Below are positions 1 through 10,992 of a stretch of DNA of 10,992 bases, one piece after another. Position numbers and translations under genes: made by a program. Positions within the stretch are counted from its first letter, which is position 1, and the number at the start of each line of letters is the position of its first letter. The notes beneath the pieces were generated by a model. That model worked only from the letters and a program-made list of their open reading frames with translations. It was not told the origin of the DNA and made no database searches. This stretch comes from a virus (taxonomy: Duplodnaviria > Heunggongvirae > Uroviricota > Caudoviricetes). The DNA is taken from IMG/VR virus record IMGVR_UViG_2684622669_000002, positions 1 to 10,992 of that record. One strand, written 5' to 3'.

Positions 1-12
1 CCGCAGATGGTT
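1..12. promoter_or_regulatory. Partial OL3-like cI operator, truncated by the window edge
   Basis: Window starts 'ccgcagatggtt', which matches the right-hand part of the lambda-type 17-bp operator TATCACCGCAGATGGTT as I recall it. Position left of the cI operon is as expected for OL. Confidence 0.45.
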
Positions 13-155
13 ATCTGTATGTTTTTTATATGAATTTATTTTTTGCAGGGGTGCATTGTTTGGTAGGTGAGAGATCTGAATTGCTATGTTTAGTGAGTTG
101 TATCTATTAATTTTCAAATAAATACAATTGGTTATGTGTTTTTTTGGGGGGGTTA

Positions 156-186
156 GGCAAAGAAAACCCGGCACTGAGGCCGGGTT
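156..186 (-). terminator. Rho-independent terminator ending the cI-cassette operon (tImm-like)
   Basis: On the minus strand, an 8-bp perfect stem (AACCCGGC / GCCGGGTT, + coords 165-172 and 179-186) with a 6-nt loop is followed by TTTTCTTTG. It begins 6 nt after the stop of the 192..563 ORF. Confidence 0.7.
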
Positions 187-191
187 GTGTG

Positions 192-563
192 TTACTTAAG
201 AACGAGTCCGTTTAAGGCATCAAGGATTTTGGAAACATAACTTCCAAAAATGTAGGCGCAAAATGCGAACACGAAACTGACAACGACCGCAGATGCCTTA
301 ATGGTGGTTTTTGCTGAGCTAATGCTTGTCTCAATACCTGACAGACGAGAATCAACAGATTTTATATCTGACTTTACCTCAGCGAGATCGCGCTTGATGT
401 ATTCAACATCAGACTCTAGCTTTGCAACTCTAGCCTCAAGCATGTTACCTCCGCCGTTTCCTCCACCATGCCGTGAGTATGCATCATCAGTGGAATAGTG
501 TCCAATTGGGCGAGATATGTTTTGATTTGGACGAAGCTGAGCAACCTTGTTATCTAAACTCAT
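192..563 (-). CDS. Hypothetical 123-aa tail-anchored coiled-coil membrane protein; distal gene of the rexAB-slot cassette, candidate membrane effector
   Basis: ORF with ATG at 563-561 and an AGGA about 10 nt upstream. Translation shows a polar N-terminus, a Gly-rich linker (GGGNGGGN), a heptad-like segment (LEARVAKLESDVEYIKRDLAEVKSDIKSVDSRL) and one C-terminal hydrophobic helix (AVVVSFVFAFCAYIFGSYV). No family recognised. Confidence 0.6.
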   Translation of the reverse strand: MSLDNKVAQLRPNQNISRPIGHYSTDDAYSRHGGGNGGGNMLEARVAKLESDVEYIKRDLAEVKSDIKSVDSRLSGIETSISSAKTTIKASAVVVSFVFAFCAYIFGSYVSKILDALNGLVLK

Positions 564-987
564 CGCGAACTGATCCTGTTATCTTCACGTCAAAAAACGA
601 ACTTTTTACATCAATTACTTCGCCTTTCTCAGGATTAACCAGTGATGCTCTAACTTCGAATATCCCAGGCTTGATAATTTTCACCCTTGGGAAGTTAATT
701 CTCATAGAAGTTGATACGATGGTTTCTCCATCGTTGGCTTCTGCTACCGTAAAAAACTTATGGTTGGAGTACAGTTTTGTGTCAATTGGTATCGGTATTT
801 CTTGAGCATTGAAAACCTCAATGCCTATGGAATATTTTTTTGTAGCCTTAAGGCAGATAAAAAAAGCGCCAAATGACAGATCCACTTCATGGGAGTCTTT
901 ATCCATTTCATAGATAAGAACTGGAGTTACGTGGTTGCCTTCATCCATCGCAATTGGAATGATATAAGAAATACGTTCTTTAATCAT
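550..987 (-). CDS. Hypothetical 145-aa protein; proximal gene of the rexAB-slot cassette
   Basis: ORF begins 7 nt after the cI stop codon and overlaps the next ORF by 14 nt. No hydrophobic helix and no catalytic motif I recognise. Alternating hydrophobic pattern suggests a beta-rich fold. Confidence 0.6.
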   Translation of the reverse strand: MIKERISYIIPIAMDEGNHVTPVLIYEMDKDSHEVDLSFGAFFICLKATKKYSIGIEVFNAQEIPIPIDTKLYSNHKFFTVAEANDGETIVSTSMRINFPRVKIIKPGIFEVRASLVNPEKGEVIDVKSSFFDVKITGSVRDEFR

Positions 988-994
988 TTACGTG

Positions 995-1711
<717 letters not shown>

Positions 1712-1718
1712 TTAAATC

Positions 1719-1784
1719 TATCACCGCAAGGGATAAACTTCTAACACCGTGCGTGTTGACTATTTTACCTCTAGCGGTGATAAT
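1719..1784. promoter_or_regulatory. OR3-OR2-OR1 operator cluster with divergent PRM/PR promoters
   Basis: OR3 tatcaccgcaagggata (1719-1735), OR2 taacaccgtgcgtgttg (1742-1758), OR1 tacctctagcggtgata (1766-1782). PR -35 ttgact (1756-1761) and -10 gataat (1779-1784) with 17-nt spacing. cro RBS aggagg at 1799-1804. Confidence 0.85.
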
Positions 1785-1808
1785 GATTGCCTGTACTAAG
1801 GAGGTTGT

Positions 1809-2009
1809 ATGGAACAACGCATAACCCTGAAAGATTATGCAATACGCTTTGGCCAAACCAAGACGGCTAAAGATCTCGGCGTATATCAAAGCGCGATTAA
1901 CAAGGCCATTCATGCAGGCCGAAAGATTTTTTTAACTATAAACGCTGATGGAAGCGTTTATGCGGAAGAAATAAAGCCCTTCCCAAGTAACAAAAAAACA
2001 ACTGCATAA
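1809..2009 (+). CDS. cro: Cro repressor
   Basis: 66-aa translation [64 protein letters not shown] matches lambda Cro apart from a couple of conservative substitutions. Strong RBS; sits immediately right of OR1/PR. Confidence 0.95.
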
Positions 2010-2016
2010 GTAACAC

Positions 2017-2062
2017 CGCTCTTTTCACAATGGACATTCGTCCTACGTCGCTGACAAAGCGA
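2017..2062 (+). promoter_or_regulatory. nutR-like N-utilisation site: boxA plus boxB hairpin
   Basis: boxA-like cgctctttt at 2017-2025, just after the cro stop. Perfect 5-bp stem with pentaloop at 2048-2062 (TCGCT-GACAA-AGCGA). The loop differs from lambda boxB (GAAAA) and resembles the P22-type loop as I recall it. Confidence 0.5.
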
Positions 2063-2146
2063 GCCCCAAGATATCTGACCAACTAAGGCCATATGCGTTT
2101 CAACGCATACCTTTCAACTAACTATTCACTATTGGAAAATTAACAA

Positions 2147-2446
2147 ATGACACAAGCAAGTTACAGCAAGCCAACACAGCGAGAAATTGATCGCGCAGAA
2201 ACAGATTTACTCATCAACCTGTCAACGCTTACCCAGCGCGGTCTGGCAAAGATGATTGGCTGTCATGAATCGAAGATAAGCAGAACGGACTGGAGATTTA
2301 TTGCTTCGGTCTTGTGTGCTTTTGGAATGGCATCAGACATCAGTCCGATTAGCAGGGCTTTTAAGTATGCGCTTGATGGACTCACCAATAAAAAACGCCC
2401 GGTGTGCAAGACCGAGCGTTCTGAACAAATACAAATGGAATTTTAA
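2147..2446 (+). CDS. cII: CII-like transcriptional activator
   Basis: 99-aa protein with a central HTH-like segment (QRGLAKMIGCHESKISR). C-terminus (LTNKKRP…TERSEQIQMEF) is almost identical to the lambda CII C-terminal region; N-terminal half differs. Position after cro/nutR fits. Confidence 0.8.
   Translation: MTQASYSKPTQREIDRAETDLLINLSTLTQRGLAKMIGCHESKISRTDWRFIASVLCAFGMASDISPISRAFKYALDGLTNKKRPVCKTERSEQIQMEF
2388..2418 (-). terminator. oop-like antisense terminator inside the 3' end of the cII-like gene
   Basis: On the minus strand, a 7-bp stem with one G-U pair (CGCUCGG…CCGGGCG), 9-nt loop, then UUUUUU. Same location and orientation as the lambda oop RNA terminator within cII. Confidence 0.45.
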
Positions 2447-2468
2447 TAACATCCAACGAGGTAATTAT

Positions 2469-2741
2469 ATGCGAAACAAAGGCTTTAATCCACCTGATAC
2501 ACACAAAGAAGCTAAGCGTTTGCGCTTCCTTCGTTCCATTGATGAAAGAACTCAAATCTCTTTTGTGAAAGTTGCCAGAACTGAGCTTCTGAAGGCTGAG
2601 GCGAGGGAGTTGCTCCCATCTCTACCAAAAGAGGAGGAATATACGTTCATTCCAAACGCATTTCTGGAAAAGCTGCTCAAAGAAGACATATCCGTAAGTC
2701 AGTTTAACGATGTTCTTAAGGTCTTTCGTCAAGGCAGGTAG
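2469..2741 (+). CDS. Hypothetical 90-aa protein between cII and the initiator gene
   Basis: ATG at 2469 is preceded by GAGG at 2458-2461 with 7-nt spacing. The track ORF 2301..2741 is the same frame extended upstream into cII and is unlikely to be the true start. Charged, probably helical protein; no family recognised. Confidence 0.5.
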   Translation: MRNKGFNPPDTHKEAKRLRFLRSIDERTQISFVKVARTELLKAEARELLPSLPKEEEYTFIPNAFLEKLLKEDISVSQFNDVLKVFRQGR

Positions 2742-2743
2742 TT

Positions 2744-3691
2744 ATGAGCAATACAGCAAAAATCTACGATTTCAGCGCCGCACACGAGCGCAGGAGCAAC
2801 AGGATGGAGAACCAGAAAACTGGTTACATTCCGTTGTACCGGAGCATTCTGAAACAGTCATGGGCGAAAGATGTTTATCTTCGCACCCTGTGGGAAAACC
2901 TTCTCCTGAATGCCGCCAGAAAGCCATACAAAGCGAATTTCAAAGGTCATGAATGGCATCTGCAACCCGGTCAACTGGTTGTGACAGCAGCTGATTTAGG
3001 TCTTCAGTTATGCGACAGGCATGGCAAGCCAGCAAGCCGCGATCAGGTTGAGCGGATGCTTCAGGTTTTTGTGAAAGAGGGGATGATCTCCATTGATGGA
3101 GAGAAGAAAAAAGGTCGTGTGATCACCATCACAAATTACCATGAATACGCTCAAAAAATGGACAATTTACCCGCACATGAAGCCGCACAAACAACCGCAC
3201 ATGATGCCGCACATGACGAAGCCAGTAACGGCGCGGCTTTCGGGGTACATGCCGCACATGAAAGCGCACATGAAGCCGCACAAACAACCGCACATCATGA
3301 ACAAGAAGGTATTAACAAGAATATAAATAATACCCCCCTACCCCCCAATGGGGGAGGCGATGGGCAGGTTAAACCTGAACGTCGCAAGGCAGAACGAATC
3401 GACTACGAATCCTTCCTGAACGCCTACAACACCGAAGTCGGTGACAGACTGCCACACGCTGTTGCGGTCAACGAGAAACGCAAACGCCGCCTGAAGAAAA
3501 TCATCCCGCAACTGAAAACGCCAAACGTGGACGGTTTCAGAGCGTATGTCAGGGCGTTTGTACATCAGGCCAAGCCGTTTTACTTCGGAGACAACGATAC
3601 TGGCTGGACGGCCGATTTTGATTACCTGCTGAGAGAAGATTCGTTAACGGGAGTTCGTGAAGGGAAGTTTGCAGACAGGGGGATTGCATGA
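2744..3691 (+). CDS. Replication initiator, O-like (N-terminal iteron-binding domain, repetitive linker, C-terminal domain)
   Basis: N-terminus [10 protein letters not shown]… resembles lambda O (MTNTAKILNF…). Iteron repeats lie inside the coding sequence, as in lambdoid O genes. Followed by a helicase gene with ATGA start/stop overlap. Confidence 0.85.
3169..3300. repeat. Origin iterons: about 8 copies of a CCGCACA(T/A)GA-type unit in two clusters, followed by an AT-rich segment
   Basis: Direct repeats visible at about 3170, 3182, 3195, 3206, 3250, 3263, 3275 and 3288. Followed by AT-rich 3301-3332 and a CCCCC-AAT-GGGGG hairpin at 3342-3354. Layout matches a lambdoid ori within the O gene. 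Confidence 0.7.
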
Positions 3692-5064
3692 AACAGGATA
3701 TCGAAGCGAGCGTTATCGGTGGCCTGCTGATTGGTGGATTAACACCAACTGCCAGTGACGTTCTGGCAACGCTGGAGCCGGAAGCGTTTTCAATTCCGCT
3801 CTACCGGAAAGCCTTCGAGGTTATCCGGAAGCAGGCGAGAAACAGAAACCTAATCGACGCGCTGATGGTTGCCGAGGCGTGCGGAGAGGAGCATTTCACG
3901 TCAATCCTGATGACCAGCAAAAACTGCCCGAGTGCCGCAAACCTGAAGGGATATGCCGGAATGGTCGCGGATAACTATCACCGCCGTCTGGTGCTGGAAA
4001 TCATGGATGAAATGCGTGAACCAATTCAGAGCGGAACCATCGACGCATCGAGTCAGGCGATGGACGAGCTTGTAAAGCGTCTTTCAGCCATCAGAAAGCC
4101 CCGTGACGAGGTTAAACCTGTACGGTTAGGGGAAATCATCACTGACTACACTGACACGCTTGACAGGCGTCTGAGGAACGGAGAAGAGTCAGATACCCTG
4201 AAGACCGGAATCGAAGAACTTGACGCCATCACCGGAGGGATGAACGCGGAAGACCTGGTGATTATCGCCGCTCGTCCTGGTATGGGGAAAACCGAACTGG
4301 CGCTGAAGATTGCCGAAGGCGTTGCAAGTCGTGTTATTCCTGGTTCTGACGTCCGGCGCGGGGTATTGATTTTCTCAATGGAAATGAGCGCATTGCAGAT
4401 TGCAGAGCGAAGCATTGCCAACGCCGGGAGGATGTCGGTTAGCGTACTGCGAAATCCTGCATCGATGGATGACGAGGGCTGGGCACGTGTTGCTAACGGC
4501 ATGAGTCAGCTTGCAGATTTGGATGTATGGGTAGTCGATGCTTCTCGGTTATCGGTCGAAGAAATACGCTCAATCGCAGAACGGCATAAGCAGGAAAATC
4601 CAAACCTGTCACTCATCATGGCGGATTATCTTGGCCTGATTGAGAAGCCGAAAGCAGACCGCAACGACCTCGCAATTGCTCACATCTCCGGAAGCCTGAA
4701 GGCGATGGCGAAAGACCTGAAAACGCCAGTTATCTCCCTGAGTCAGCTTTCGCGCGATGTTGAGAAGCGACCAAACAAACGCCCGACAAACGCAGATTTG
4801 CGTGATTCAGGAAGCATTGAGCAGGACGCAGACTCAATCATCATGCTCTATCGGGAAGCGGTATATGACGAGAACGGTAGCGCCGCGCCATTTGCTGAAA
4901 TCATCGTGACGAAAAACCGTTTTGGCTCGCTTGGTACGGTTTACCAGCGGTTCTGTAACGGACACTTTGTTGCATGTGACCAGGATGAAGCAAGACAGAT
5001 TTGCACAGCATCAAATGCACCTGCTGCGCGTGGCAGACGATATGCACAAGGGGCTGACGTATGA
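3688..5064 (+). CDS. DnaB-family replicative helicase (phage-encoded, P22 gp12-like)
   Basis: 458 aa. Walker A ARPGMGKT, DnaB-like motifs ([17 protein letters not shown]), N-terminal DnaB-type domain. Start overlaps the stop of the O-like gene. Confidence 0.9.
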
Positions 5065-5136
5065 CCATCTACATAACTGAGCTAATAACAGGCCTGCTGG
5101 TAATCGCAGGCCTTTTTATTTGGGGGAGAGGGAAGT

Positions 5137-5463
5137 GTGGCTGACTGGCAAATTCCAATCATCATTCTTGCCGGAGCTTCGCTGGTTGCTGGCTTTATCC
5201 TGCTGAAAAAGCATAAAGACCGTGATCAAAAAGTCGAAGTTCTATATGGGTATCCAGCGAACTGCACAACATGGCTGACCATTTACCACTACCGAAAATC
5301 AGGCCGCTGGGTATTCGAATGGGATGATCTGTTCGCTGAAAAGCGACCAAAGTCATGGGGAGACATCAGCGAATGCATGATGTTTGAAGAAAGAAAATCC
5401 GGCGCAACTCGAGAAGAGTTTAACGAAGCGTGGAGGCGATTAAGTGAGAGAGGGTATCAATGA
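5137..5463 (+). CDS. Hypothetical 108-aa protein with an N-terminal transmembrane helix (ren-position gene)
   Basis: GTG start at 5137 preceded by GGGGGAGAGGG. N-terminal hydrophobic helix IPIIILAGASLVAGFILL. Stop overlaps the start of the next ORF (ATGA). Confidence 0.45.
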   Translation: MADWQIPIIILAGASLVAGFILLKKHKDRDQKVEVLYGYPANCTTWLTIYHYRKSGRWVFEWDDLFAEKRPKSWGDISECMMFEERKSGATREEFNEAWRRLSERGYQ

Positions 5464-5696
5464 GCAGAATTAAATCTGGTTATCCAGGGAATGGGGAATA
5501 CCCGAAGCCATATTTACCTGTAACAGTGACCACTCAATCTAAGCATCCACATCATTTCAAGCATAGTGGTACAGCTTATTGGAGTGGAAAGCGGTGGATA
5601 GGTATTGATGGGTTCAAAATTGGGTATGCAAAGGTAATTAAATGGGAATTTAACATCGCACACTGGAGTTCATCCCATGAGGAAACTAACGTTTGA
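5460..5696 (+). CDS. Hypothetical 78-aa protein
   Basis: ORF translationally coupled to the preceding ORF (ATGA overlap); its 3' end overlaps the ninB start by 20 nt. No family recognised. Confidence 0.45.
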   Translation: MSRIKSGYPGNGEYPKPYLPVTVTTQSKHPHHFKHSGTAYWSGKRWIGIDGFKIGYAKVIKWEFNIAHWSSSHEETNV

Positions 5697-6117
5697 ACTA
5701 AGAAGCCCCATCCATCAGCAGAACGCCATTCAAGCCATCCAGCAAATCCTTCCAGACCCAACCAAACCAATCGTAGTAACCATTCAGGAGCGCAACCGCA
5801 GCTTAGACCAGAATCGAAAGCTTTGGGCTTGCCTTGGTGACGTCTCGCGTCAGGTTGAATGGCATGGTCGATGGCTGGATGCAGAAAGCTGGAAGTGTGT
5901 GTTTACCGCAGCATTAAAGCAGCAGGACGTTGTTCCTAACCTTGCCGGGAATGGCTTTGTGGTAATAGGCCAGTCAACCAGCAGGATGCGTGTAAGCGAA
6001 TTTGCGGAGCTATTAGAGCTTATACAGGCATTCGGTACAGAGCGTGGCGTTAAGTGGTCAGACGAAGCGAGACTGGCTCTGGAGTGGAAAGCGAGATGGG
6101 GAGATCGGGCTGCATGA
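5677..6117 (+). CDS. ninB: NinB recombination protein (Orf-family, ssDNA-binding)
   Basis: 146-aa translation is near-identical to lambda NinB as I recall it (…LTFE.RSP.HQQNAI…LPDPTKPIVVTIQERNRSLDQNRKLWACLGDVSRQVEWHGRWLDAESWKCVFTAALKQQDVVPNLAGNGFVVIGQSTSRMRV…). Confidence 0.9.
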   Translation: MRKLTFELRSPIHQQNAIQAIQQILPDPTKPIVVTIQERNRSLDQNRKLWACLGDVSRQVEWHGRWLDAESWKCVFTAALKQQDVVPNLAGNGFVVIGQSTSRMRVSEFAELLELIQAFGTERGVKWSDEARLALEWKARWGDRAA

Positions 6118-6641
6118 CTATCAAATCAAATACGCCAGCACACGACAAGGACTGCTGGCAAACGCCGCTCTGGCTTTTTGATGCGCTGGATATTGAGTTT
6201 GGGTTCTGGTTGGATTCGGCAGCGAGCGACAAAAATGCTCTGTGCGCTCACTGGTTAACTGAGGCCGACGACGCGCTAAATTCTGAGTGGGTAAGCCACG
6301 GTGCAATCTGGAATAACCCACCGTACAGCAATATCAGGCCGTGGGTGGAAAAAGCCGCTGAGCAGTGCATACAACAGCGACAGACGGTAGTTATGCTTGT
6401 GCCAGAGGATATGTCAGTCGGATGGTTCAGCAAGGCTCTGGAGAGTGTCGACGAAGTTCGCATTATCACTGATGGACGGATTAATTTTATCGAACCATCG
6501 ACGGGGCTGGAGAAGAAGGGAAACAGCAAAGGCTCCATGCTGCTGATTTGGCGACCGTTCATCAGTCCTCGACGGATGTTTACTACCGTATCCAAAGCGG
6601 CATTGATGGCGATCGGGCAGGGCGTCAGGAGGGCTGCATGA
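6114..6641 (+). CDS. Phage DNA N6-adenine methyltransferase (phage Dam family)
   Basis: Start ATG at 6114 overlaps the ninB stop. NPPY catalytic motif ([10 protein letters not shown]). Size and position are typical of nin-region phage Dam proteins. The track ORF from 6054 is an upstream in-frame extension. Confidence 0.85.
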
Positions 6642-6814
6642 GACGACAGCGACGAAGCATCACCGACATCATCTGTGAAAACTGCAAATACCTTCCAACG
6701 AAACGCTCCAGAAATAAACGCAAGCCAATCCCAAAAGAATCTGACGTAAAAACCTTCAACTACACGGCTCACCTGTGGGATATCCGGTGGCTAAGACATC
6801 GTGCGAGGAAATGA
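6638..6814 (+). CDS. ninE: NinE
   Basis: 58-aa product [55 protein letters not shown] matches lambda NinE as recalled. Start overlaps the Dam stop (ATGA). Confidence 0.8.
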
Positions 6815-6816
6815 CA

Positions 6817-7176
6817 ATGGATTATTCACAGTTAAGTGATTTTGAAATTAACGTGGCGGTATTCGAAGCCATTCATAACGGATCACCGGATTACAAAGAA
6901 GGTGAGAATGGCGATATGGTGTTTGTCTCATTTGAGGGAGACATTGTAAACGGAGACGCAGTTGAAGTAGAAGTTGAGCGCGGATCCTTTAACCCATGCG
7001 CAAACCCAGCAGACGCATGGCCGATTATTGAAAAATACAGGATTAGCATTATCAATCTCGATGAAGACGAGTGGGGTGCACGCGGTGTGGCCTACTGTAA
7101 ATCTAAGCGAGCTATACATGAAAATCCCCTCCGCGCCGCCATGATTGTCTTTCTCATGATGCAGAGAATCCAATAA
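6817..7176 (+). CDS. Hypothetical acidic nin-region protein (about 120 aa)
   Basis: ATG at 6817 preceded by GAGG at 6805-6808; ATG 6811 is an alternative start. Acidic N-terminal half. Ends TAATG, overlapping the ninF start. Confidence 0.55.
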   Translation: MDYSQLSDFEINVAVFEAIHNGSPDYKEGENGDMVFVSFEGDIVNGDAVEVEVERGSFNPCANPADAWPIIEKYRISIINLDEDEWGARGVAYCKSKRAIHENPLRAAMIVFLMMQRIQ

Positions 7177-7352
7177 TGCTTAGCCCATCCCAATCCCTTC
7201 AATACCAGAAAGAAAGCGTCGAGCGAGCTTTAACGTGCGCTAACTGCGGTCAGAAGCTGCATGTGCTGGAAGTTCACGTGTGTGAGCACTGCTGCGCAGA
7301 ACTGATGAGCGATCCGAATAGCTCAATGTACGAGGAAGAAGACGATGAATGA
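7176..7352 (+). CDS. ninF: NinF
   Basis: Not in the supplied ORF track (below size cutoff). Hand translation gives MLSPSQSLQYQKESVERALTCANCGQKLHVLEVHVCEHCCAELMSDPNSSMYEEEDDE, which matches lambda NinF as recalled, with Cys-rich motifs. Confidence 0.7.
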   Translation: MLSPSQSLQYQKESVERALTCANCGQKLHVLEVHVCEHCCAELMSDPNSSMYEEEDDE

Positions 7353-8070
7353 GTTAATAAATGGCAATGCCATCAAAATGACAAGCATTGAAATCGCTGA
7401 GTTGGTAGAAAGCCGCCATAGCAATGTAAAAGTATCCATAGATAGATTGGTGAAACGTGGCGTTATCAAGCCTCCTGCATTGCAGCACACTAACATAATC
7501 AATGATTTAGGTGTTATTACCGGGAAGCGTGATTTCTACGTCTTCGAGGGCGAACAAGGTAAGCGAGACAGCATTATTGTCGTCGCTCAGTTGTCGCCGG
7601 AATTCACCGCTCGTCTTGTTGACCGTTGGCGAGAGCTTGAAGAAGCTGCAGTTAATATCCCCAAAACGTTACCGGAAGCGTTGCGCCTTGCTGCTGATCT
7701 TGCTGAGCAGAAAATGCAACTGGAAAACCAGCTCGCAATTGCCGCACCTAAAGTTGAGTTTGCCGATCGAGTTGGCGAGGCCAGCGGAATTTTGATTGGA
7801 AACTATGCAAAGGTTGTTGGTATTGGTCCAAACAAACTGTTTGCATGGATGCGCGATCACAAAATCCTTATTGCTTCAGGTTCCCGGCGCAATGTGCCAA
7901 TGCAGGAATATATGGATCGCGGCTATTTCACAGTGAAAGAAACAGCGGTCAACACAAATCACGGAATACAGATATCGTTTACCACAAAAATCACCGGGCG
8001 CGGTCAACAGTGGCTGACCAGAAAGTTGCTCGATAACGGAATGCTGAAAGTAACAGGGGAGGCTGCTTAA
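7345..8070 (+). CDS. Phage antirepressor, KilAC (ANT) domain protein
   Basis: 241 aa. C-terminal segment (NYAKVVGIGPNKLFAWMRDHKILIASGSRRNVPMQEYMDRGYF) has the ANT/KilA-C pattern. N-terminal domain is of the AntA/Rha-like type. RBS GAGGAAG upstream. Confidence 0.8.
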   Translation: MNELINGNAIKMTSIEIAELVESRHSNVKVSIDRLVKRGVIKPPALQHTNIINDLGVITGKRDFYVFEGEQGKRDSIIVVAQLSPEFTARLVDRWRELEEAAVNIPKTLPEALRLAADLAEQKMQLENQLAIAAPKVEFADRVGEASGILIGNYAKVVGIGPNKLFAWMRDHKILIASGSRRNVPMQEYMDRGYFTVKETAVNTNHGIQISFTTKITGRGQQWLTRKLLDNGMLKVTGEAA

Positions 8071-8360
8071 TGGCTAACCTACGCAAAGAAGCACGCGGCA
8101 GAGAATGCCAGGTACGTATTTACGGCGTATGCAATGGCAATCCTGAAACTACAGTTCTGGCACATTACCGGATGGCTGGAATTTGCGGAACGGGAATGAA
8201 GCCTGACGACCTGATCGGTGCATGGGCTTGTAGTGCGTGTCACGATGAAATCGACCGACGCACCCATAATCTCGACAACAAAGACGCCAGACTTTACCAC
8301 CTCGAAGGCGTGATCAGAACGCAGGCGATACTGCTGAAGGAGGGGAAGATTAAGCCATGA
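8070..8360 (+). CDS. ybcO: YbcO-like protein (DUF1364, Cys/His-rich putative nuclease)
   Basis: 96-aa protein with CxxxxxC … CxxC-H motif. Resembles DLP12 prophage YbcO as recalled. Sits before rusA as in DLP12-type nin regions. Confidence 0.7.
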   Translation: MANLRKEARGRECQVRIYGVCNGNPETTVLAHYRMAGICGTGMKPDDLIGAWACSACHDEIDRRTHNLDNKDARLYHLEGVIRTQAILLKEGKIKP

Positions 8361-8881
8361 ACGGTAAAAGATATCCAACACAAAAAGAAATCAATGAATT
8401 GTATGAATATAATAGCGAAACAGGTTTGTTTATATACAAGAGAAGAGAAAGTGTAAGAGAGTGCTGGAATTCAACATATGCCGGTAAGATTGCTGGTTCT
8501 ATAGATGAAAAAGGATACGTTCGTATATCTGTAAATAAAAAAGTTTGTCGAGCTCATAGAATCGCATGGATATCCTTTTATGGAAGTGAACCTGATGGGG
8601 AAATTGACCACATAAATGGAATTAAAAGCGATAACAGAATATGCAATTTGCGCGTTGTAGATGATAAACAGAACTCAAGGAACAGAAAAAAGCCTATTAA
8701 TAATCGCTCTGGAGTAATTGGTGTTGCCTACTATAAGAAGAATAAAAAGTGGGGCGCATATATAAACAGTGATAATAAAAAGATATTTCTTGGATTATAC
8801 GATGACATATCTCTAGCCGTTAATGCCAGAAAATTGGCGGAATCACGATTGGGCTATCACCATAATCATGGGAGAGGATAA
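8357..8881 (+). CDS. HNH endonuclease with AP2-type DNA-binding domain (homing-endonuclease-like)
   Basis: HNH_3-type motif (EIDHINGIKSDNRICNLRVV) followed by an AP2-like segment (SGVIGVAYYKKNKKWGAYI). Codon usage is visibly AT-rich compared with flanking genes. Confidence 0.8.
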   Translation: MNGKRYPTQKEINELYEYNSETGLFIYKRRESVRECWNSTYAGKIAGSIDEKGYVRISVNKKVCRAHRIAWISFYGSEPDGEIDHINGIKSDNRICNLRVVDDKQNSRNRKKPINNRSGVIGVAYYKKNKKWGAYINSDNKKIFLGLYDDISLAVNARKLAESRLGYHHNHGRG

Positions 8882-9244
8882 ATGGCAGAATACAGATTCA
8901 CACTTCCGTACCCACCGTCGCTGAACACCTACTGGCGAAGACGGGGAAGCCAATACTACATCAGCGATAAAGGCCAGAAATACCGAAAAGACGTTCAGCA
9001 AATCATCCGCCAACTTAAGTTAGACATTTTCACCAAATCACGACTCCGCATCAAAGTCATCGCAGACGTTCCAGACTCCCGCCGCCGCGACCTCGACAAC
9101 ATCCTGAAAGGTTTACTCGACTCCCTTATCCACGCCGGATTTGCGGAAGACGACGAGCAATTCGATGACATTCGCGTAATTCGTGGCGTGAAAGTACCAG
9201 GCGGAAGGCTTGGAATAAAAATCACCGAACTGGAGAACGCATGA
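8882..9244 (+). CDS. rusA: RusA Holliday junction resolvase
   Basis: 120 aa with the conserved RusA pattern (…DVPDSRRRDLDNILKGLLDSL…GGRLGIKITE…), comparable to E. coli RusA. Confidence 0.9.
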   Translation: MAEYRFTLPYPPSLNTYWRRRGSQYYISDKGQKYRKDVQQIIRQLKLDIFTKSRLRIKVIADVPDSRRRDLDNILKGLLDSLIHAGFAEDDEQFDDIRVIRGVKVPGGRLGIKITELENA

Positions 9245-9429
9245 ACGCCACAATTCAAACGATACCAGAGCTTCTTATCCAGACACGAGGCAATCAGACC
9301 GAAGTGGCGAGGATGCTTTCCTGCGCAAGAGGAACAGTGCTCAAGTACAACCGAGACAGCAAAGGCGAGCGTCATGTAATAGTTAACGGCGTCCTGATGG
9401 TCAAACAGGGCAAGAGGGGAAGACGATGA
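9241..9429 (+). CDS. ninH: NinH-like small DNA-binding protein
   Basis: 62 aa. IPELLIQTRGNQTEVARMLSCARGTVLKY matches lambda NinH (IPDMLVEAYGNQTEVARRLKCSRGTVRKY as recalled). Confidence 0.75.
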   Translation: MNATIQTIPELLIQTRGNQTEVARMLSCARGTVLKYNRDSKGERHVIVNGVLMVKQGKRGRR

Positions 9430-9914
9430 GCATAAGAGAACTAAACCTCACCAAAGAACAGCACGATTGGCTGAATGGCTGGCTTGAACTGTGGGGCGCA
9501 TGGGTTTATTCAGGCCGCCTGGAAAAGCGCATGAGCAGCGTAATAGCGAAGTTCATGGAGAGCGTAGAGCCGGGAAGAGTTATGACAAGGCCAATGTGTA
9601 ATGATGATGATGGAATGTTGATTTCTCAGGTCGTCGATTCCGTCATGTACATTGACAAGAAAGCCTTTGGCATCCTCCTCAGCTACTACGCTCATGGATC
9701 TTCCAAGCATGCCATTGCATCTTACTATCATCGTGTCGCAAGACCTCGCAAGATGTTATGCCGGGGCGGCGGGCGCATTCAAAAACCATCGCTCGCAACC
9801 TGTCGACGGGAAGTTGACGAAATCCTTAATGCCTCGTTGTTTATGATTTACCCGGTTCTTGATAGTGCGTTTAAAAACCGGAAACGTGTAGAGAAAATTA
9901 AACATGTAGCATAG
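9426..9914 (+). CDS. Late-gene antiterminator Q-like protein (probably phage-21-type)
   Basis: Last gene of the nin operon, immediately upstream of a TTGACA promoter element and the lysis genes, and adjacent to a phage-21-type S/R cassette. Call rests on position and size; sequence not independently matched. Confidence 0.6.
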   Translation: MSIRELNLTKEQHDWLNGWLELWGAWVYSGRLEKRMSSVIAKFMESVEPGRVMTRPMCNDDDGMLISQVVDSVMYIDKKAFGILLSYYAHGSSKHAIASYYHRVARPRKMLCRGGGRIQKPSLATCRREVDEILNASLFMIYPVLDSAFKNRKRVEKIKHVA

Positions 9915-9920
9915 AACGTG

Positions 9921-9952
9921 TTGACATCATTGAGCAAATGAGCAACACTATT
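9921..9952 (+). promoter_or_regulatory. Candidate late promoter PR'
   Basis: Consensus -35 TTGACA at 9921-9926, 7 nt after the Q stop. A-T-rich candidate -10 (cactat/actatt) 19-20 nt downstream, so spacing is not ideal. Called mainly on position. Confidence 0.35.
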
Positions 9953-9963
9953 GGCATAAGCTG

Positions 9964-10004
9964 CCGTTAGTGACTCTTAAGTTGCAACGGTGGATTTTTT
10001 TATT
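9964..10004 (+). terminator. Terminator-like stem-loop plus T-tract shortly downstream of the candidate PR'
   Basis: CCGTT (9964-9968) pairs with AACGG (9986-9990) and can extend inward with a bulge; TTTTTTTATTT follows at 9995-10005. Could be a short-leader tR' or a pause/processing structure. Confidence 0.35.
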
Positions 10005-10005
10005 T

Positions 10006-10080
10006 GGGTCAGTCGTATAAAGGTCATTACGGAAGGCTGTTAACCTTCTTATCGTGGTTCGAGTCCACGCTGTCCCGCCA
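10006..10080 (+). tRNA. tRNA-like gene, anticodon GTT (Asn), CCA encoded
   Basis: Hand-folded cloverleaf. Acceptor gggtcag/ctgtccc with one T-T mismatch. Anticodon stem gaagg/ccttc with loop ctGTTaa. T-arm cgtgg-ttcgagt-ccacg. 3' gCCA. D-stem is only 3 bp. Confidence 0.5.
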
Positions 10081-10085
10081 AACAT

Positions 10086-10161
10086 GCTGGTTTAGCTCCA
10101 ATGGTAGAGCAGTCGCCTTGTAAGCGAATGGGTAGCGGTTCAAGTCCGTTAACCAGAACCA
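10086..10161 (+). tRNA. tRNA-like gene, anticodon TGT (Thr), CCA encoded
   Basis: Hand-folded cloverleaf. D-arm gctc-caatggta-gagc. Anticodon loop ctTGTaa. T-arm agcgg-ttcaagt-ccgtt. Acceptor gctggtt/aaccaga with a mismatch at the first pair. 3' aCCA. Confidence 0.55.
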
Positions 10162-10168
10162 TAACTGA

Positions 10169-10229
10169 GCCGTAGCCACTGGCTATCCTGAATTCATCAG
10201 TGATAGTTACGCTGCGGCCTTCTTTTTTC
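10169..10229 (+). terminator. Structured region with T-tract downstream of the tRNAs (candidate tR')
   Basis: Imperfect long hairpin (gccgtagc … gctgcggc with internal ctatc/gatag pairing) followed by ccttcttttttcc. Lies about 300 nt downstream of the candidate PR' and before the holin RBS. Confidence 0.35.
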
Positions 10230-10279
10230 CCCTTCCCAATATAAGAACTACGCAATCCGTTACTGGCGGAGGCGTTGCT

Positions 10280-10495
10280 ATGAAATCAATGGACAAAATC
10301 TCAACTGGCATTGCCTACGGAACATCTGCTGGTAGTGCGGGATACTGGTTTTTGCAGTGGTTGGATCAGGTCAGTCCGTCACAGTGGGCTGCGATTGGAG
10401 TGCTTGGAAGCCTTGTCTTGGGTTTTCTCACTTATCTGACAAATCTTTATTTCAAGATTAAAGAAGATAAGCGTAAGGCTGCGAGAGGTGAATAA
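10280..10495 (+). CDS. S: Phage-21-type pinholin S (dual-start MKSM motif)
   Basis: 71-aa translation [60 protein letters not shown]…KAARGE matches S21 as recalled. Two TM segments. GGAGG RBS 8 nt upstream. Confidence 0.95.
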
Positions 10496-10992
10496 TGTCG
10501 CCGTCATTACGCAAGGCTGTTGCAGCTGCTATTGGTGGTGGGGCTGTTGCCATAGCGTCTGTGCTCATCACTGGTCCAGGTGGTAACGATGGTCTGGAAG
10601 GTGTCAGCTACATACCATACAAAGATATCGTTGGCGTATGGACTGTATGTCACGGGCACACCGGAAAAGACATTATGCCCGGTAAAACGTATACCGAAGC
10701 AGAATGCAAAGCCCTCCTGAATAAAGACCTTGCCACGGTCGCCAGACAAATTAACCCGTACATCAAAGTCGATATACCGGAAACAACGCGCGGCGCTCTT
10801 TACTCGTTCGTTTACAACGTGGGCGCTGGTAATTTCAGAACATCGACGCTTCTTCGCAAAATAAACCAGGGTGATATCAAAGGCGCATGTGACCAGCTAC
10901 GTCGCTGGACATACGCTGGCGGTAAGCAATGGAAAGGGCTGATGACCCGTCGTGAGATTGAGCGTGAAGTCTGTTTGTGGGGGCAACAATGA
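10495..10992 (+). CDS. R: SAR endolysin R (phage-21-type lysozyme with N-terminal signal-anchor-release domain)
   Basis: 165 aa. N-terminal Gly/Ala-rich weakly hydrophobic SAR segment ([23 protein letters not shown]), then a T4-lysozyme-like catalytic domain. Start overlaps the holin stop (TAATG). Confidence 0.95.

What the first reader, a model, noticed from the sequence alone, without database searches (positions are those of the whole stretch)
10006..10161. Two tRNA-like genes (Asn-GTT and Thr-TGT anticodons) between Q and the holin, both with acceptor-stem mismatches
Both sequences fold into cloverleaves by hand, with good T-arms and encoded CCA. Each has a mismatch in the acceptor stem and the first has a weak D-stem. 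They may be functional phage tRNAs supporting late-gene translation, or decaying copies. tRNA clusters at this position are known in Stx-type and other lambdoid prophages.
Basis: seen in the sequence. Interest (0 to 1): 0.4.

Follow-up and report, generated by a model that had tools for sequence, protein, structure and literature searches.

The report
Known phage 21 late-leader tRNA pair
These are two real tRNA genes (Asn and Thr) that many lambda-like phages carry just ahead of their lysis genes; the Thr one has already been shown by others to replace a host tRNA that anti-phage nucleases destroy, so the finding is correct but already known.

Summary
ARAGORN and Rfam both call tRNA-Asn(GUU) at 10006-10080 and tRNA-Thr(UGU) at 10086-10161, at 55.3 and 52.2 bits against a gathering score of 29.

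The region is 98.7% identical to phage 21. There, pR', the Q-binding element, tR', both tRNAs, the S21 pinholin and the SAR endolysin are already annotated. The same pair occurs in Sf6, SfI, BTP1 and HK446, and in 369 of 5,426 complete E. coli genomes.

The two acceptor-stem mismatches differ in kind:
- **Asn U4·U69** is fixed across the family. It persists in a divergent copy with eight compensatory stem changes.
- **Thr G1·A72** is a private C-to-A change at 10157. I found it in no other copy. It breaks a ThrRS identity pair and costs 9 bits.

Published experiments show that the phage 21 and HK446 tRNA-Thr resist the P2 OLD nuclease and rescue cells or phages from it. Resistance is attributed to a shortened anticodon stem and an altered CNG motif, and this window has both.

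The Asn gene also lacks the OLD and PARIS target motifs, but nobody has tested it. Codon usage gives only weak support for simple codon supplementation.

Verdict: already known, low interest.

The parts
9426..9914 (+). Q21-type late antiterminator gene (context)
   Evidence: 162-aa ORF. It aligns to the phage 21 antiterminator CDS with 12 substitutions in 489 nt.
9921..9956 (+). pR' late promoter: -35 TTGACA at 9921-9926, Q-binding element ATTGAGCAAATGAGCA at 9929-9944, -10 at 9944-9949, transcription start at 9956
   Evidence: Coordinates transferred from the phage 21 record OL657228.1 (window = locus + 8399). The sequence was read directly. The simple sigma-70 scan did not flag it.
9958..10005 (+). 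tR' leader terminator: hairpin 9961-9993 followed by a U-run at 9995-10005. A9994 is a private C-to-A change at the base of the stem.
   Evidence: Annotated as a terminator in phage 21. Fold -15.1 kcal/mol, z -3.05. C9994 is present in phage 21 and in the consensus.
10006..10080 (+). tRNA-Asn(GUU), CCA encoded. It has G73, G34 U35 U36 A37, a U4.U69 mismatch and a U13.U22 mismatch. The anticodon stem is GAAGG/CCUUC.
   Evidence: ARAGORN. Rfam 55.3 bits. Identical to phage 21 and Sf6. Pair table.
10081..10085 (+). 5-nt spacer AACAU between the CCA of Asn and G1 of Thr
   Evidence: Sequence. It is the most polymorphic site of the block: C10083T in 28 of 65 copies. P7 has the same tandem layout with a 2-nt spacer after the encoded CCA.
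10086..10161 (+). tRNA-Thr(UGU), CCA encoded. It has G1.A72 (private C72A at 10157), C2-G71, G4-C69, G5-C68, C14, a G27.A43 mismatch and U28/A42.
   Evidence: ARAGORN. Rfam 52.2 bits versus 61.5 for the phage 21 copy with C72. It is the only copy with A72.
10169..10228 (+). Conserved long hairpin (10169-10218) followed by CUUCUUUUUU. It looks like a terminator and is a leader/boundary element shared with lambda-type leaders that lack tRNAs.
   Evidence: Fold -27.7 kcal/mol, z -6.81, 0 of 200 shuffles as good. The 24-nt core was found in at least 120 IMG/VR contigs, 56 of them with no tRNA upstream. A terminator is annotated at the equivalent place in phage L.
10280..10495 (+). S21 pinholin / antiholin (dual start at 10280 and 10289)
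   Evidence: ORF. Matches the phage 21 S21-71 / S21-68 annotation.
10495..10992 (+). R21-type SAR endolysin
   Evidence: ORF. Phage 21 annotation.

Best explanation
This is the phage-21-type late-leader tRNA cassette, a mobile module of about 230 bp. [quoted passage not shown]

**Expression (inferred from the layout and from established knowledge of E. coli tRNA maturation).** Transcription starts at pR' (9956). Without Q it stops at tR'. Q21-modified RNA polymerase reads through, so the tRNAs are the first things made on the late transcript. Host RNase P would cut the 5' ends. Endonuclease and exonuclease trimming would expose the encoded CCA ends.

**Function (shown by others for the identical anticodon arm).** The Thr tRNA is a nuclease-resistant substitute for the single-copy host tRNA-Thr(UGU), which ATPase-Toprim defence nucleases destroy (P2 OLD; PARIS AriB targets the same host species). 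Resistance is attributed to the G27.A43 mismatch, which shortens the anticodon stem, and to U28/A42, which remove the CNG cleavage motif.

**The Asn tRNA (inferred).** It probably plays the same role. Host tRNA-Asn(GUU) is a secondary target of both nucleases. The phage copy lacks CNG on both strands and lacks the UAAU motif.

**Secondary benefit.** A boost in decoding ACA/ACG is plausible.

**This particular copy.** The Thr gene carries a private C72A change that breaks the G1-C72 ThrRS identity pair. It is either a recent slightly damaging mutation in a resident prophage or a sequence error.
For: **Real tRNAs.**

**Same module as phage 21, with annotated pR', QBE and tR'.**. Also annotated in Sf6.

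**Spread.** 93 phage records; 369 of 5,426 complete E. coli genomes; also Shimwellia and Atlantibacter.

**Modularity.** The same tRNA block follows either a phage-21-type or a lambda-type tR'.

**Selection for structure.**
- Thr G5-C68 to U5-A68 in 5 copies, and U3-A70 to C3-G70 in a fruit-bat faecal ('Flyfo') siphovirus, OL617042.1.
- The Atlantibacter Asn has 8 changes on both sides across three stems, all still Watson-Crick.
- Against phage 21, there is 1 substitution in 151 nt of tRNA, versus 12 in 489 nt of Q and 43 in 713 nt of S+R.

**Identity sets** (Giege & Eriani, PMC9976931).
- Asn: G73, G34 U35 U36 and A37 are all present.
- Thr: C2-G71, G4-C69, G5-C68, G35 and U36 are present.

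**Published function.**
- Phage 21 tRNA-Thr protects against P2 OLD toxicity and resists cleavage in vitro. The paper notes its shorter anticodon stem and altered base pairs; it tested the C28U/G42A pair in host tRNA, where alone it did not protect (PMC12445682).
[quoted passage not shown] It restores plating of HK97, HK542 and Bas34 on OLD+ cells (bioRxiv 10.64898/2026.07.10.737580).
- AriB cleaves host Lys(UUU), Thr(UGU) and Asn(GUU) (PMC12409363).
- P2 OLD also cleaves tRNA-Asn(GUU).

**Motif table.** Host thrU and asnT have paired CNG motifs and UAAUC. Both window tRNAs lack them.

**Expression.** The authors set the two BTP1 tRNA genes apart when listing the prophage genes with TPM above 100, which I read as the tRNAs being highly expressed too (PMC7067206).
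Against: - Nothing was measured on this window's copy. Its A72 variant lowers the model score by 9.3 bits. Its predicted minimum-energy fold pulls the CCA end into an alternative register.
- The published rescues used plasmid-expressed tRNA, not the native Q-dependent context. Late expression may come too late for a defence triggered early.
- In the 2026 preprint, a single viral Thr tRNA did not rescue lambda or OLD toxicity in recB-deficient cells. HK446 escapes OLD mainly through the protein Oad2, and the authors suggest its tRNA may have another purpose.
- The main AriB target is Lys(UUU), which the cassette lacks.
- P7's tRNA-Thr keeps both CNG motifs, and P7's tRNA-Asn keeps UAAUCA.
- 56 of 120 relatives with the same downstream leader element have no tRNAs, so the cassette is dispensable.
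Confidence: 0.75

Rival explanations
1. Plain codon supplementation. The tRNAs exist only to raise the supply of decoders for codons that the late genes use more than the host does (ACA for Thr, AAC/AAU for Asn). They have no role in defence evasion.
For: - In phage 21 late structural genes ACA is 12.4 per 1000 and ACG 26.6 per 1000. Host values are about 7 and 14 (the ACA host value of 7.1 is quoted in PMC3636060; the rest is from my memory of the Kazusa table).
- The SfI paper reports the same ACA bias.
- The phage L paper notes that 24 of 25 Asn codons in its capsid gene are AAC.
- The tRNAs sit at the head of the late operon.
Against: - Asn codons are not enriched: 37.6 per 1000 in phage 21 late genes, versus about 39 in the host from memory. 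The SfI authors also found no bias and called the role of Asn unclear.
- The phage 21 major capsid gene has a single ACA.
- Relatives sharing the leader element, with or without the tRNAs, have the same ACA, Thr and Asn usage. Downstream ACA is 12.3 vs 13.9 per 1000, p = 0.12; Asn p = 0.40.
- This model does not explain why the anticodon stems avoid the nuclease motifs, or why expressing extra E. coli Thr(UGU) had no effect on OLD defence while the viral Thr(UGU) tRNAs rescued plating.
Confidence: 0.2
2. Decay. In this window the tRNA-Thr gene is an inactivated or crippled copy in a resident prophage, and the cassette is on its way to being lost.
For: - C72A at 10157 is private to this window. 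It is absent from phage 21, Sf6, HK446, 64 IMG/VR copies and 4 species-representative genomes (GTDB). IMG/VR has no exact match. The best match in the E. coli complete genomes and in the phage collection is 99.4%.
- It breaks G1-C72, a bacterial ThrRS identity pair, and costs 9.3 bits.
- A second private C-to-A change lies at the base of tR' (9994).
- Decay of the second tRNA does happen elsewhere. The second tRNA of phage L / ST64T scores 42.1 bits and ARAGORN does not call it.
- Many relatives have lost or never had the tRNAs.
Against: - It is one substitution only. All other identity elements and the whole resistant anticodon arm are intact.
- 52.2 bits is still well above the gathering score and close to bona fide host tyrU at 53.4.
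- Host thrU itself carries an A52.C62 mismatch.
- Asn is identical to the family consensus.
- Two C-to-A singletons could equally be sequencing or assembly artefacts.
Confidence: 0.15
3. RNA-processing or recombination element. The cloverleaves serve mainly as RNase P punctuation that separates the leader from the lysis mRNA, or as conserved linker sequence for exchange of mosaic modules. Decoding would be incidental.
For: - The block sits exactly between two structured elements and between exchangeable modules: Q/leader types upstream and lysis cassettes downstream.
- tRNA-less leaders of one class carry a small tRNA-like acceptor/T-arm element at the same place.
Against: - Anticodons and identity elements are strictly conserved.
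- The function of phage tRNA-Thr in rescue requires the UGU anticodon.
- The flanking hairpin is present with or without tRNAs, so it does not depend on them.
Confidence: 0.05

Closest known systems
Phage 21 tRNA-Asn / tRNA-Thr genes (GenBank OL657228.1, CPT_21_64 and CPT_21_65; 'tRNAThr21' of Govande et al. 2025)
   Same: - Same order, spacing and position: pR', QBE, tR', Asn, Thr, S21, R21.
- Asn is identical.
- Thr is identical except for one base.
- 98.7% identity over 391 nt.
   Different: - C72A in Thr (10157) and C9994A in the tR' stem.
- The surrounding Q and S/R genes differ by 2.5% and 6%.
- The rest of the window is mosaic, HK97- and CUS-3-like. This is a relative of phage 21, not phage 21 itself.
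Late-leader tRNA pair of P22-like and other lambdoid phages (Sf6, SfI, BTP1, Kapi1, CUS-3, HK446, mEp506)
   Same: The same two tRNAs at 97-99% identity directly downstream of the late terminator.
   Different: - Upstream Q/qut modules differ. HK446 has a lambda-type tR'.
- Downstream lysis cassettes differ (lambda S-type versus S21).
- Phage L / ST64T has a divergent second tRNA with a UAA anticodon.
P1/P7 tRNA-Asn / tRNA-Thr tandem in the C1-controlled ban operon region
   Same: - Same two anticodons in the same order, with a short spacer: 2 nt after the encoded CCA in P7, 5 nt here.
- Thr is about 80% identical, with the same T-arm and a near-identical acceptor stem.
   Different: - Different genomic context and regulation.
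- The P7 Asn is a different tRNA body.
- Both P7 tRNAs score about 75 bits with canonical A14.
- P7 Thr keeps both CNG motifs and a full 5-bp anticodon stem.
T5 / T4-type virulent-phage tRNA arrays that counter PARIS and OLD
   Same: - They supply Thr(UGU) and Asn(GUU) variants with substitutions around positions 39-41.
- G39 is shared by T5 Thr, P7 Thr and the window Thr.
   Different: - T5 carries about 24 tRNAs, including the key Lys(UUU).
- They are expressed from their own early promoters, not from a Q-dependent leader.
ileZ-argN-argO tRNA cluster between Q and stx in Stx phages
   Same: Same genomic niche (downstream of Q/pR', upstream of late genes) and the same idea of phage-borne tRNAs in the late leader (reference; otherwise from my own knowledge).
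   Different: Different tRNA species, which are rare-codon decoders for AUA, AGA/AGG and CGA. Not compared by sequence here.

Membership tests
tRNA (Rfam RF00005) | Full-length covariance-model match above the gathering score | tested here: met
   55.3 and 52.2 bits against 29, model positions 1-71 of 71.
tRNA (Rfam RF00005) | Independent cloverleaf finder calls a gene with a 7-nt anticodon loop | tested here: met
   ARAGORN: Asn gtt and Thr tgt, anticodon at position 34.
tRNA (Rfam RF00005) | Stems maintained by compensatory change in relatives | tested here: met
   Thr 5-68 G-C to U-A (5 copies) and 3-70 U-A to C-G. Asn has 8 changes on both sides in the D, anticodon and T stems of the Atlantibacter copy.
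tRNA (Rfam RF00005) | Canonical tertiary core (U8-A14, G18 G19, T-loop TTCRAnY) | tested here: inconclusive
   Asn meets all of these. Thr has C14 instead of A14; this is the consensus of the 65 copies, with one variant (T). G18 G19 and the T-loop are present.
Bacterial tRNA-Asn identity set (AsnRS) | G73 discriminator plus G34, U35, U36 and A37 | tested here: met
   The sequence reads ...CUGUUAA... and ...CCC-G-CCA. Identity set from PMC9976931.
Bacterial tRNA-Thr identity set (ThrRS) | G1-C72 | tested here: not met
   The window has G1.A72 (10086/10157). Of the other copies, all have G1-C72 except one IMG/VR copy with A1.C72. Identity set.
Bacterial tRNA-Thr identity set (ThrRS) | C2-G71, G4-C69, G5-C68, G35, U36 | tested here: met
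   Pair table. Identity set.
Phage-21-type late-leader tRNA cassette | Located between the pR'/tR' leader terminator and the lysis genes, on the late strand | tested here: met
   tR' at 9958-10005, tRNAs at 10006-10161, S21 at 10280.
Phage-21-type late-leader tRNA cassette | Near-identity to the annotated phage 21 / Sf6 genes | tested here: met
   155 of 156 nt identical to phage 21 and Sf6.
Phage-21-type late-leader tRNA cassette | Q-dependent expression and processing to mature tRNA | not testable with these tools
   Inferred from the layout. The only indirect support is that the BTP1 RNA-seq paper sets the two tRNA genes apart when listing genes with TPM above 100.
OLD-resistant phage tRNA-Thr(UGU) (Govande et al. 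2025) | UGU anticodon with a shortened anticodon stem | tested here: met
   G27.A43 mismatch leaves 4 pairs. The paper describes this for tRNAThr21.
OLD-resistant phage tRNA-Thr(UGU) (Govande et al. 2025) | Paired CNG motif at 28-30 and 40-42 is altered | tested here: met
   UCG / CGA in place of the host CUG / CAG. This matches the C28U/G42A substitution pair the paper tested in host tRNA.
OLD-resistant phage tRNA-Thr(UGU) (Govande et al. 2025) | Resists cleavage and rescues OLD toxicity | not testable with these tools
   Published for the C72 form. The A72 form in this window is untested.
PARIS AriB-resistant tRNAs (Belukhina et al. 2025) | Loss of the U36-A-A-U39-C40 site (U39 essential, position 41 and U16 contribute) | tested here: met
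   Thr reads UAAGCG and Asn reads UAACCU. Position 16 is A in both. Actual resistance was not tested.

The most novel reading that the evidence does not exclude
The cassette is a two-tRNA anti-Toprim-nuclease unit, not a lone resistant Thr.
- The Asn tRNA is also OLD- and AriB-proof. It has no CNG on either strand and no U39.
- Its family-wide oddities are evasion or tuning features rather than defects. These are U4.U69, kept even when every other stem is rewritten, and C14 in Thr.
- Because pR' is constitutive and the tRNAs lie between tR' and a second terminator-like hairpin, leak-through could supply them early and in lysogens without opening the lysis genes.
Probability: 0.3. Interest if true: 0.45.

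Novelty: already known. Interest (0 to 1): 0.2.

Why it matters
The genes themselves add nothing new. They are annotated in GenBank for phage 21, Sf6, SfI and BTP1, and the Thr gene has been tested functionally.

Three things may be useful for follow-up:
1. This copy is a natural C72A variant at a ThrRS identity pair, in an otherwise intact nuclease-resistant tRNA.
2. The untested Asn partner lacks the same nuclease motifs, and host tRNA-Asn is a secondary target of both OLD and PARIS. That gives a direct, cheap experiment to settle a role the literature calls unclear.
3. The native expression logic (Q-dependent, bracketed by two terminator-like hairpins) has not been connected to the counter-defence role.

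Tried and rejected
- **Independent promoter for the tRNAs.** The sigma-70 scan of 9300-10500 found only one weak site at 9582-9611 and nothing between tR' and the tRNAs. It also missed the documented pR', so it is not informative.
- **Codon usage as a discriminator.** I compared relatives with and without the tRNAs that share the leader element. ACA, Thr and Asn usage did not differ; only ACG differed nominally, at p = 0.025 uncorrected. The samples are small and not phylogenetically independent.
- **Searching for the A72 variant elsewhere.** IMG/VR gave 0 exact matches. The species-representative genomes (GTDB) gave 4 hits, all with C72. No E. coli complete genome or phage record is 100% identical. 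The source genome was not identified.
- **PARIS as the explanation.** The coincidence of targets is attractive, but the cassette lacks Lys(UUU), the main AriB target, and nothing links lambdoid tRNAs to PARIS experimentally. I kept it only as part of the wider Toprim-nuclease reading.
- **HepS (Gifsy-1).** It cleaves Thr tRNAs, mainly GGU. No link to phage tRNAs is reported.
- **Papers not held.** Guo, Kainz & Roberts 1991 (PMC207295) and Sargen & Helaine 2024 (PMC11840918) could not be read.
- **Minus-strand ORFs over the tRNAs** (10027-10179 and 10049-10255). I judged these incidental.
- **Poor literature searches.** Two searches returned mostly mitochondrial-genome papers.

Full report

Yes. 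ARAGORN finds exactly two tRNA genes in the 10,992-nt window: tRNA-Asn (gtt) at 10006-10080 and tRNA-Thr (tgt) at 10086-10161, both on the + strand. Rfam's tRNA model matches both from end to end at 55.3 and 52.2 bits, with E-values of 5.8e-10 and 4.3e-9 and a gathering score of 29.

For scale, E. coli K-12 thrU, asnT, glyT and tyrU score 73.8, 72.6, 64.9 and 53.4 bits in the same search. The window scores are low for elongator tRNAs but within the range of real host genes.

Both genes encode CCA and have good T-arms. Asn has U4·U69 and an A/U-rich D-stem ending in U13·U22. Thr has G1·A72.

**2. What the locus is**

Window 9900-10290 is 98.7% identical to phage 21 (OL657228.1). That record annotates, in order:
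- the Q antiterminator
- the pR' -35 and -10 elements
- the Q-binding element
- the late transcription start
- the sigma-dependent pause element
- the tR' terminator
- tRNA-Asn and tRNA-Thr
- the S21 antiholin/pinholin
- the SAR endolysin

Transferred to the window, these are: pR' -35 at 9921-9926, QBE at 9929-9944, start at 9956, tR' at 9958-10005, S21 at 10280-10495 and R21 at 10495-10992.

The tR' hairpin (9961-9993, -15.1 kcal/mol, z -3.05) ends in a U-run that abuts G1 of tRNA-Asn.

Sf6's record annotates the same two tRNAs as 'similar to phage 21'. The SfI and phage L papers discuss them.

The window is not phage 21 itself. Q differs at 12 of 489 nt and S+R at 43 of 713 nt, and the left part of the window is HK97- and CUS-3-like.

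**3. Distribution and module boundaries**

The 391-nt region hits 93 phage records from Escherichia, Shigella, Salmonella and Klebsiella. The 156-nt tRNA block occurs in 369 of 5,426 complete E. coli genomes, nearly always annotated as tRNA-Asn and tRNA-Thr. Among species-representative genomes it also turns up in Shimwellia and Atlantibacter.

I fetched 120 IMG/VR contigs by a 24-nt word from the downstream flank, so the tRNAs themselves did not bias retrieval.
- 64 contigs carry Asn followed by Thr; 56 carry no tRNA.
- Among the carriers, sequence upstream of about 9996 falls into unrelated classes. These include the lambda-type tR', as in HK446.
- The tRNA block is nearly invariant.

The cassette is therefore a discrete mosaic module. 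It runs from the terminator U-run to the end of a conserved hairpin at 10223.

P1/P7 carries an Asn-Thr tandem with the same order and a short spacer. Its Thr is about 80% identical.

**4. Functional gene or decaying copy?**

At family level the evidence points to function.
- Polymorphism within the block is sparse. The one recurrent paired change is compensatory: Thr G5-C68 to U5-A68 in 5 copies.
- A fruit-bat faecal ('Flyfo') siphovirus has U3-A70 to C3-G70.
- The Atlantibacter tRNA-Asn keeps the acceptor stem exactly, including U4·U69. Its D, anticodon and T stems are rewritten with eight changes on both sides, all still Watson-Crick.
- Against phage 21, the tRNA genes have 1 difference in 151 nt, while the flanking coding genes diverge by 2.5-6%.
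- The bacterial identity sets in Giege & Eriani are met, with one exception. Asn needs G73, G34, U35, U36 and A37. Thr needs G1-C72, C2-G71, G4-C69, G5-C68, G35 and U36.

A72 (window 10157) is C in phage 21, Sf6, HK446, all 64 IMG/VR copies and all four species-representative genomes. An exact search for the A variant in IMG/VR returns nothing. The best E. coli genome or phage record is 99.4% identical.

The C72 form scores 61.5 bits against 52.2 here. The predicted minimum-energy fold of the A72 form slides the 3' end into a register that pairs the CCA. This is a prediction only.

A second private C-to-A change (9994) removes a G-C pair at the base of tR'.

So 'decay' is a live option for this single copy of Thr, not for the family. 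Two C-to-A singletons could also be sequence errors.

Real decay does occur elsewhere. The second tRNA of phage L / ST64T has a UAA anticodon, scores 42.1 bits, and ARAGORN does not call it.

**5. What it does**

The layout means that transcripts from pR' stop at tR' unless Q21 has modified the polymerase. The two tRNAs are then the first products of the late transcript. They must be excised by host RNase P and 3' trimming. This step is inferred from the annotated elements and from general knowledge of E. coli tRNA maturation; I did not measure it.

The authors of the BTP1 transcriptome paper set the two tRNA genes apart when listing the prophage genes above 100 TPM. I read that as the tRNAs being highly expressed too.

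*Codon supplementation, the classical explanation, is weakly supported.*
- Phage 21 late genes use ACA at 12.4 per 1000 and ACG at 26.6 per 1000. Host values are about 7 and 14 (ACA 7.1 is quoted; the rest is from memory).
- Asn codons are not enriched, at 37.6 per 1000.
- The capsid gene has one ACA.
- Relatives with and without the cassette do not differ in ACA, Thr or Asn usage.
- The SfI authors already called the role of tRNA-Asn unclear.

*A counter-defence role has experimental backing from others.*
- Govande et al. [quoted passage not shown]
- They showed that phage tRNA-Thr(UGU) genes rescue, and specifically that 'phage 21 ... tRNAThr21 ... also protected against P2-OLD'.
- Its transcript resists cleavage. 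[quoted passage not shown]
- A 2026 preprint found that HK446 Thr(UGU) restores plating of HK97, HK542 and Bas34 on OLD+ cells. The HK446 gene is identical to the phage 21 gene.
- Belukhina et al. (2025) showed that PARIS AriB cleaves host Lys(UUU), Thr(UGU) and, more weakly, Asn(GUU) at U36-A-A-U-C|N41. U39 is essential, and position 41 and U16 contribute.
- PARIS restricts lambda.

Reading the window against these rules:
- Host thrU is ACUGA/UCAGU (CUG, CAG, UAAUCA).
- The window Thr is GUCGC/GCGAA. It has G27·A43, UCG/CGA instead of the CNG motifs, and UAAGCG.
- Host asnT is GCGGA/UCCGU (CGG, CCG, UAAUCC).
- The window Asn is GAAGG/CCUUC. It has no CNG on either strand, and reads UAACCU.

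The G27·A43 'defect' is thus part of the published resistance determinant. The Asn gene shows the same avoidance, although nobody has tested it.

*Caveats.*
- All rescues used plasmid expression.
- One viral Thr tRNA did not rescue lambda or recB-deficient toxicity.
- HK446 relies mainly on the protein Oad2, and its authors doubt that the tRNA's native role is anti-OLD.
- The cassette lacks Lys(UUU).
- P7 Thr keeps the CNG motifs, and P7 Asn keeps the AriB UAAUCA site.
- Nearly half of related leaders do without tRNAs.

**6. Comparison with known systems, and novelty**

This is the phage-21-type late-leader tRNA cassette, already annotated and partly characterised. It works like the resistant tRNAs of T5 and T4, but with only two species and under Q control.

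It shares a genomic niche with the ileZ-argN-argO cluster of Stx phages, which I did not compare by sequence.

New here, in a modest way:
- the split between a fixed mismatch (Asn U4·U69) and a private one (Thr G1·A72)
- the fixed C14 in Thr
- the motif-level prediction that the Asn partner is also nuclease-resistant

**7. Verdict**

The feature is already known and of low interest (0.2).

The most novel reading still open is that this is a two-tRNA anti-Toprim-nuclease unit whose oddities are adaptive and which is expressed at a low level between two terminators. I put its probability at about 0.3.

Noticed in passing
window 10169-10228: A very stable long hairpin (-27.7 kcal/mol, z -6.8) followed by CUUCUUUUUU sits just after tRNA-Thr. 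Its core is conserved in lambda-type late leaders that have no tRNAs (56 of 120 IMG/VR contigs). Homology to those leaders ends at 10223, where the S21 cassette begins. It may be a second leader terminator, a processing site or a module-boundary sequence. From memory, tandem t'R terminators were described for lambda.
   Followed up: partly
window 9994: A private C-to-A change removes the G-C pair at the base of the tR' hairpin. Phage 21 and the consensus have C. It is the second C-to-A singleton within 170 nt, which raises the question of a sequencing artefact versus real mutations.
   Followed up: partly
window 10099 (tRNA-Thr position 14): The phage-21-type tRNA-Thr has C14 where nearly all tRNAs have A14, the partner of U8. 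It is C in all but one of the 64 IMG/VR copies (one has T). P7 and host thrU have A14.
   Followed up: partly
window 10086-10161: With A72, the predicted minimum-energy fold pairs U3-U8 with G71-A76, burying the CCA end. The C72 form of phage 21 folds as a normal acceptor stem. This is a prediction only.
   Followed up: no
L125 481-552 (phage L / ST64T): The second leader tRNA is a divergent homologue of tRNA-Thr. It keeps the Thr-type acceptor stem but has a rebuilt anticodon arm reading UAA (annotated as Leu). It scores 42.1 bits and ARAGORN does not call it. It could be a decayed copy or a re-purposed tRNA.
   Followed up: partly
L133 (Atlantibacter subterraneus), about 150 nt upstream of the match: A divergent tRNA-Asn is paired with a near-identical tRNA-Thr. 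Its acceptor stem is identical to the window's, including U4.U69. The D, anticodon and T stems are all different and fully paired, and the anticodon stem UUCGG/CCGAA carries the same UCG/CGA triplets as the phage tRNA-Thr.
   Followed up: partly
L127 1425-1575 (phage P7, same in P1): An Asn(GUU)-Thr(UGU) tandem with the same order lies in the C1-controlled ban region; its spacer after the encoded CCA is 2 nt, against 5 nt in the window. The same pair therefore recurs in an unrelated temperate coliphage.
   Followed up: partly
L126 601-838 (Flyfo siphovirus Tbat2_3): The cassette has a tRNA-Phe(GAA) inserted between Asn and Thr, showing that the module can gain members.
   Followed up: no
L014 5876-5934 (13 IMG/VR contigs of this class): Leaders without tRNAs carry a small tRNA-like acceptor/T-arm element (GCCGGTTCGATTCCGGC...CCACAACC) at the place where tRNA-Thr ends in the window. 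It gives a sub-threshold match to the tRNA-like domain of tmRNA: 20.2 bits against a gathering score of 47, E 3.4e-6.
   Followed up: partly
window 10150-10175 versus lambda-type leaders (e.g. L009, L011): The 3' end of tRNA-Thr plus its flank (CCAGCACCATAACTGAGCC) resembles the lambda-type leader at the same point (CAGCACAACCCAAACTGAGCC). This may be a remnant of a tRNA 3' end or the recombination joint of the cassette.
   Followed up: no
L003 189-264 (E. coli thrU): The host's own single-copy tRNA-Thr(UGU) has an A52.C62 mismatch in its T-stem. A lone stem mismatch is therefore no sign of a pseudogene.
   Followed up: no
window 1-9430: The rest of the window is a mosaic. The best matches are HK97 (immunity/replication, 96%), CUS-3, JEP4 and Kapi1, and Stx2 phages match for the nin region. 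No single phage record covers more than 56% of it.
   Followed up: no
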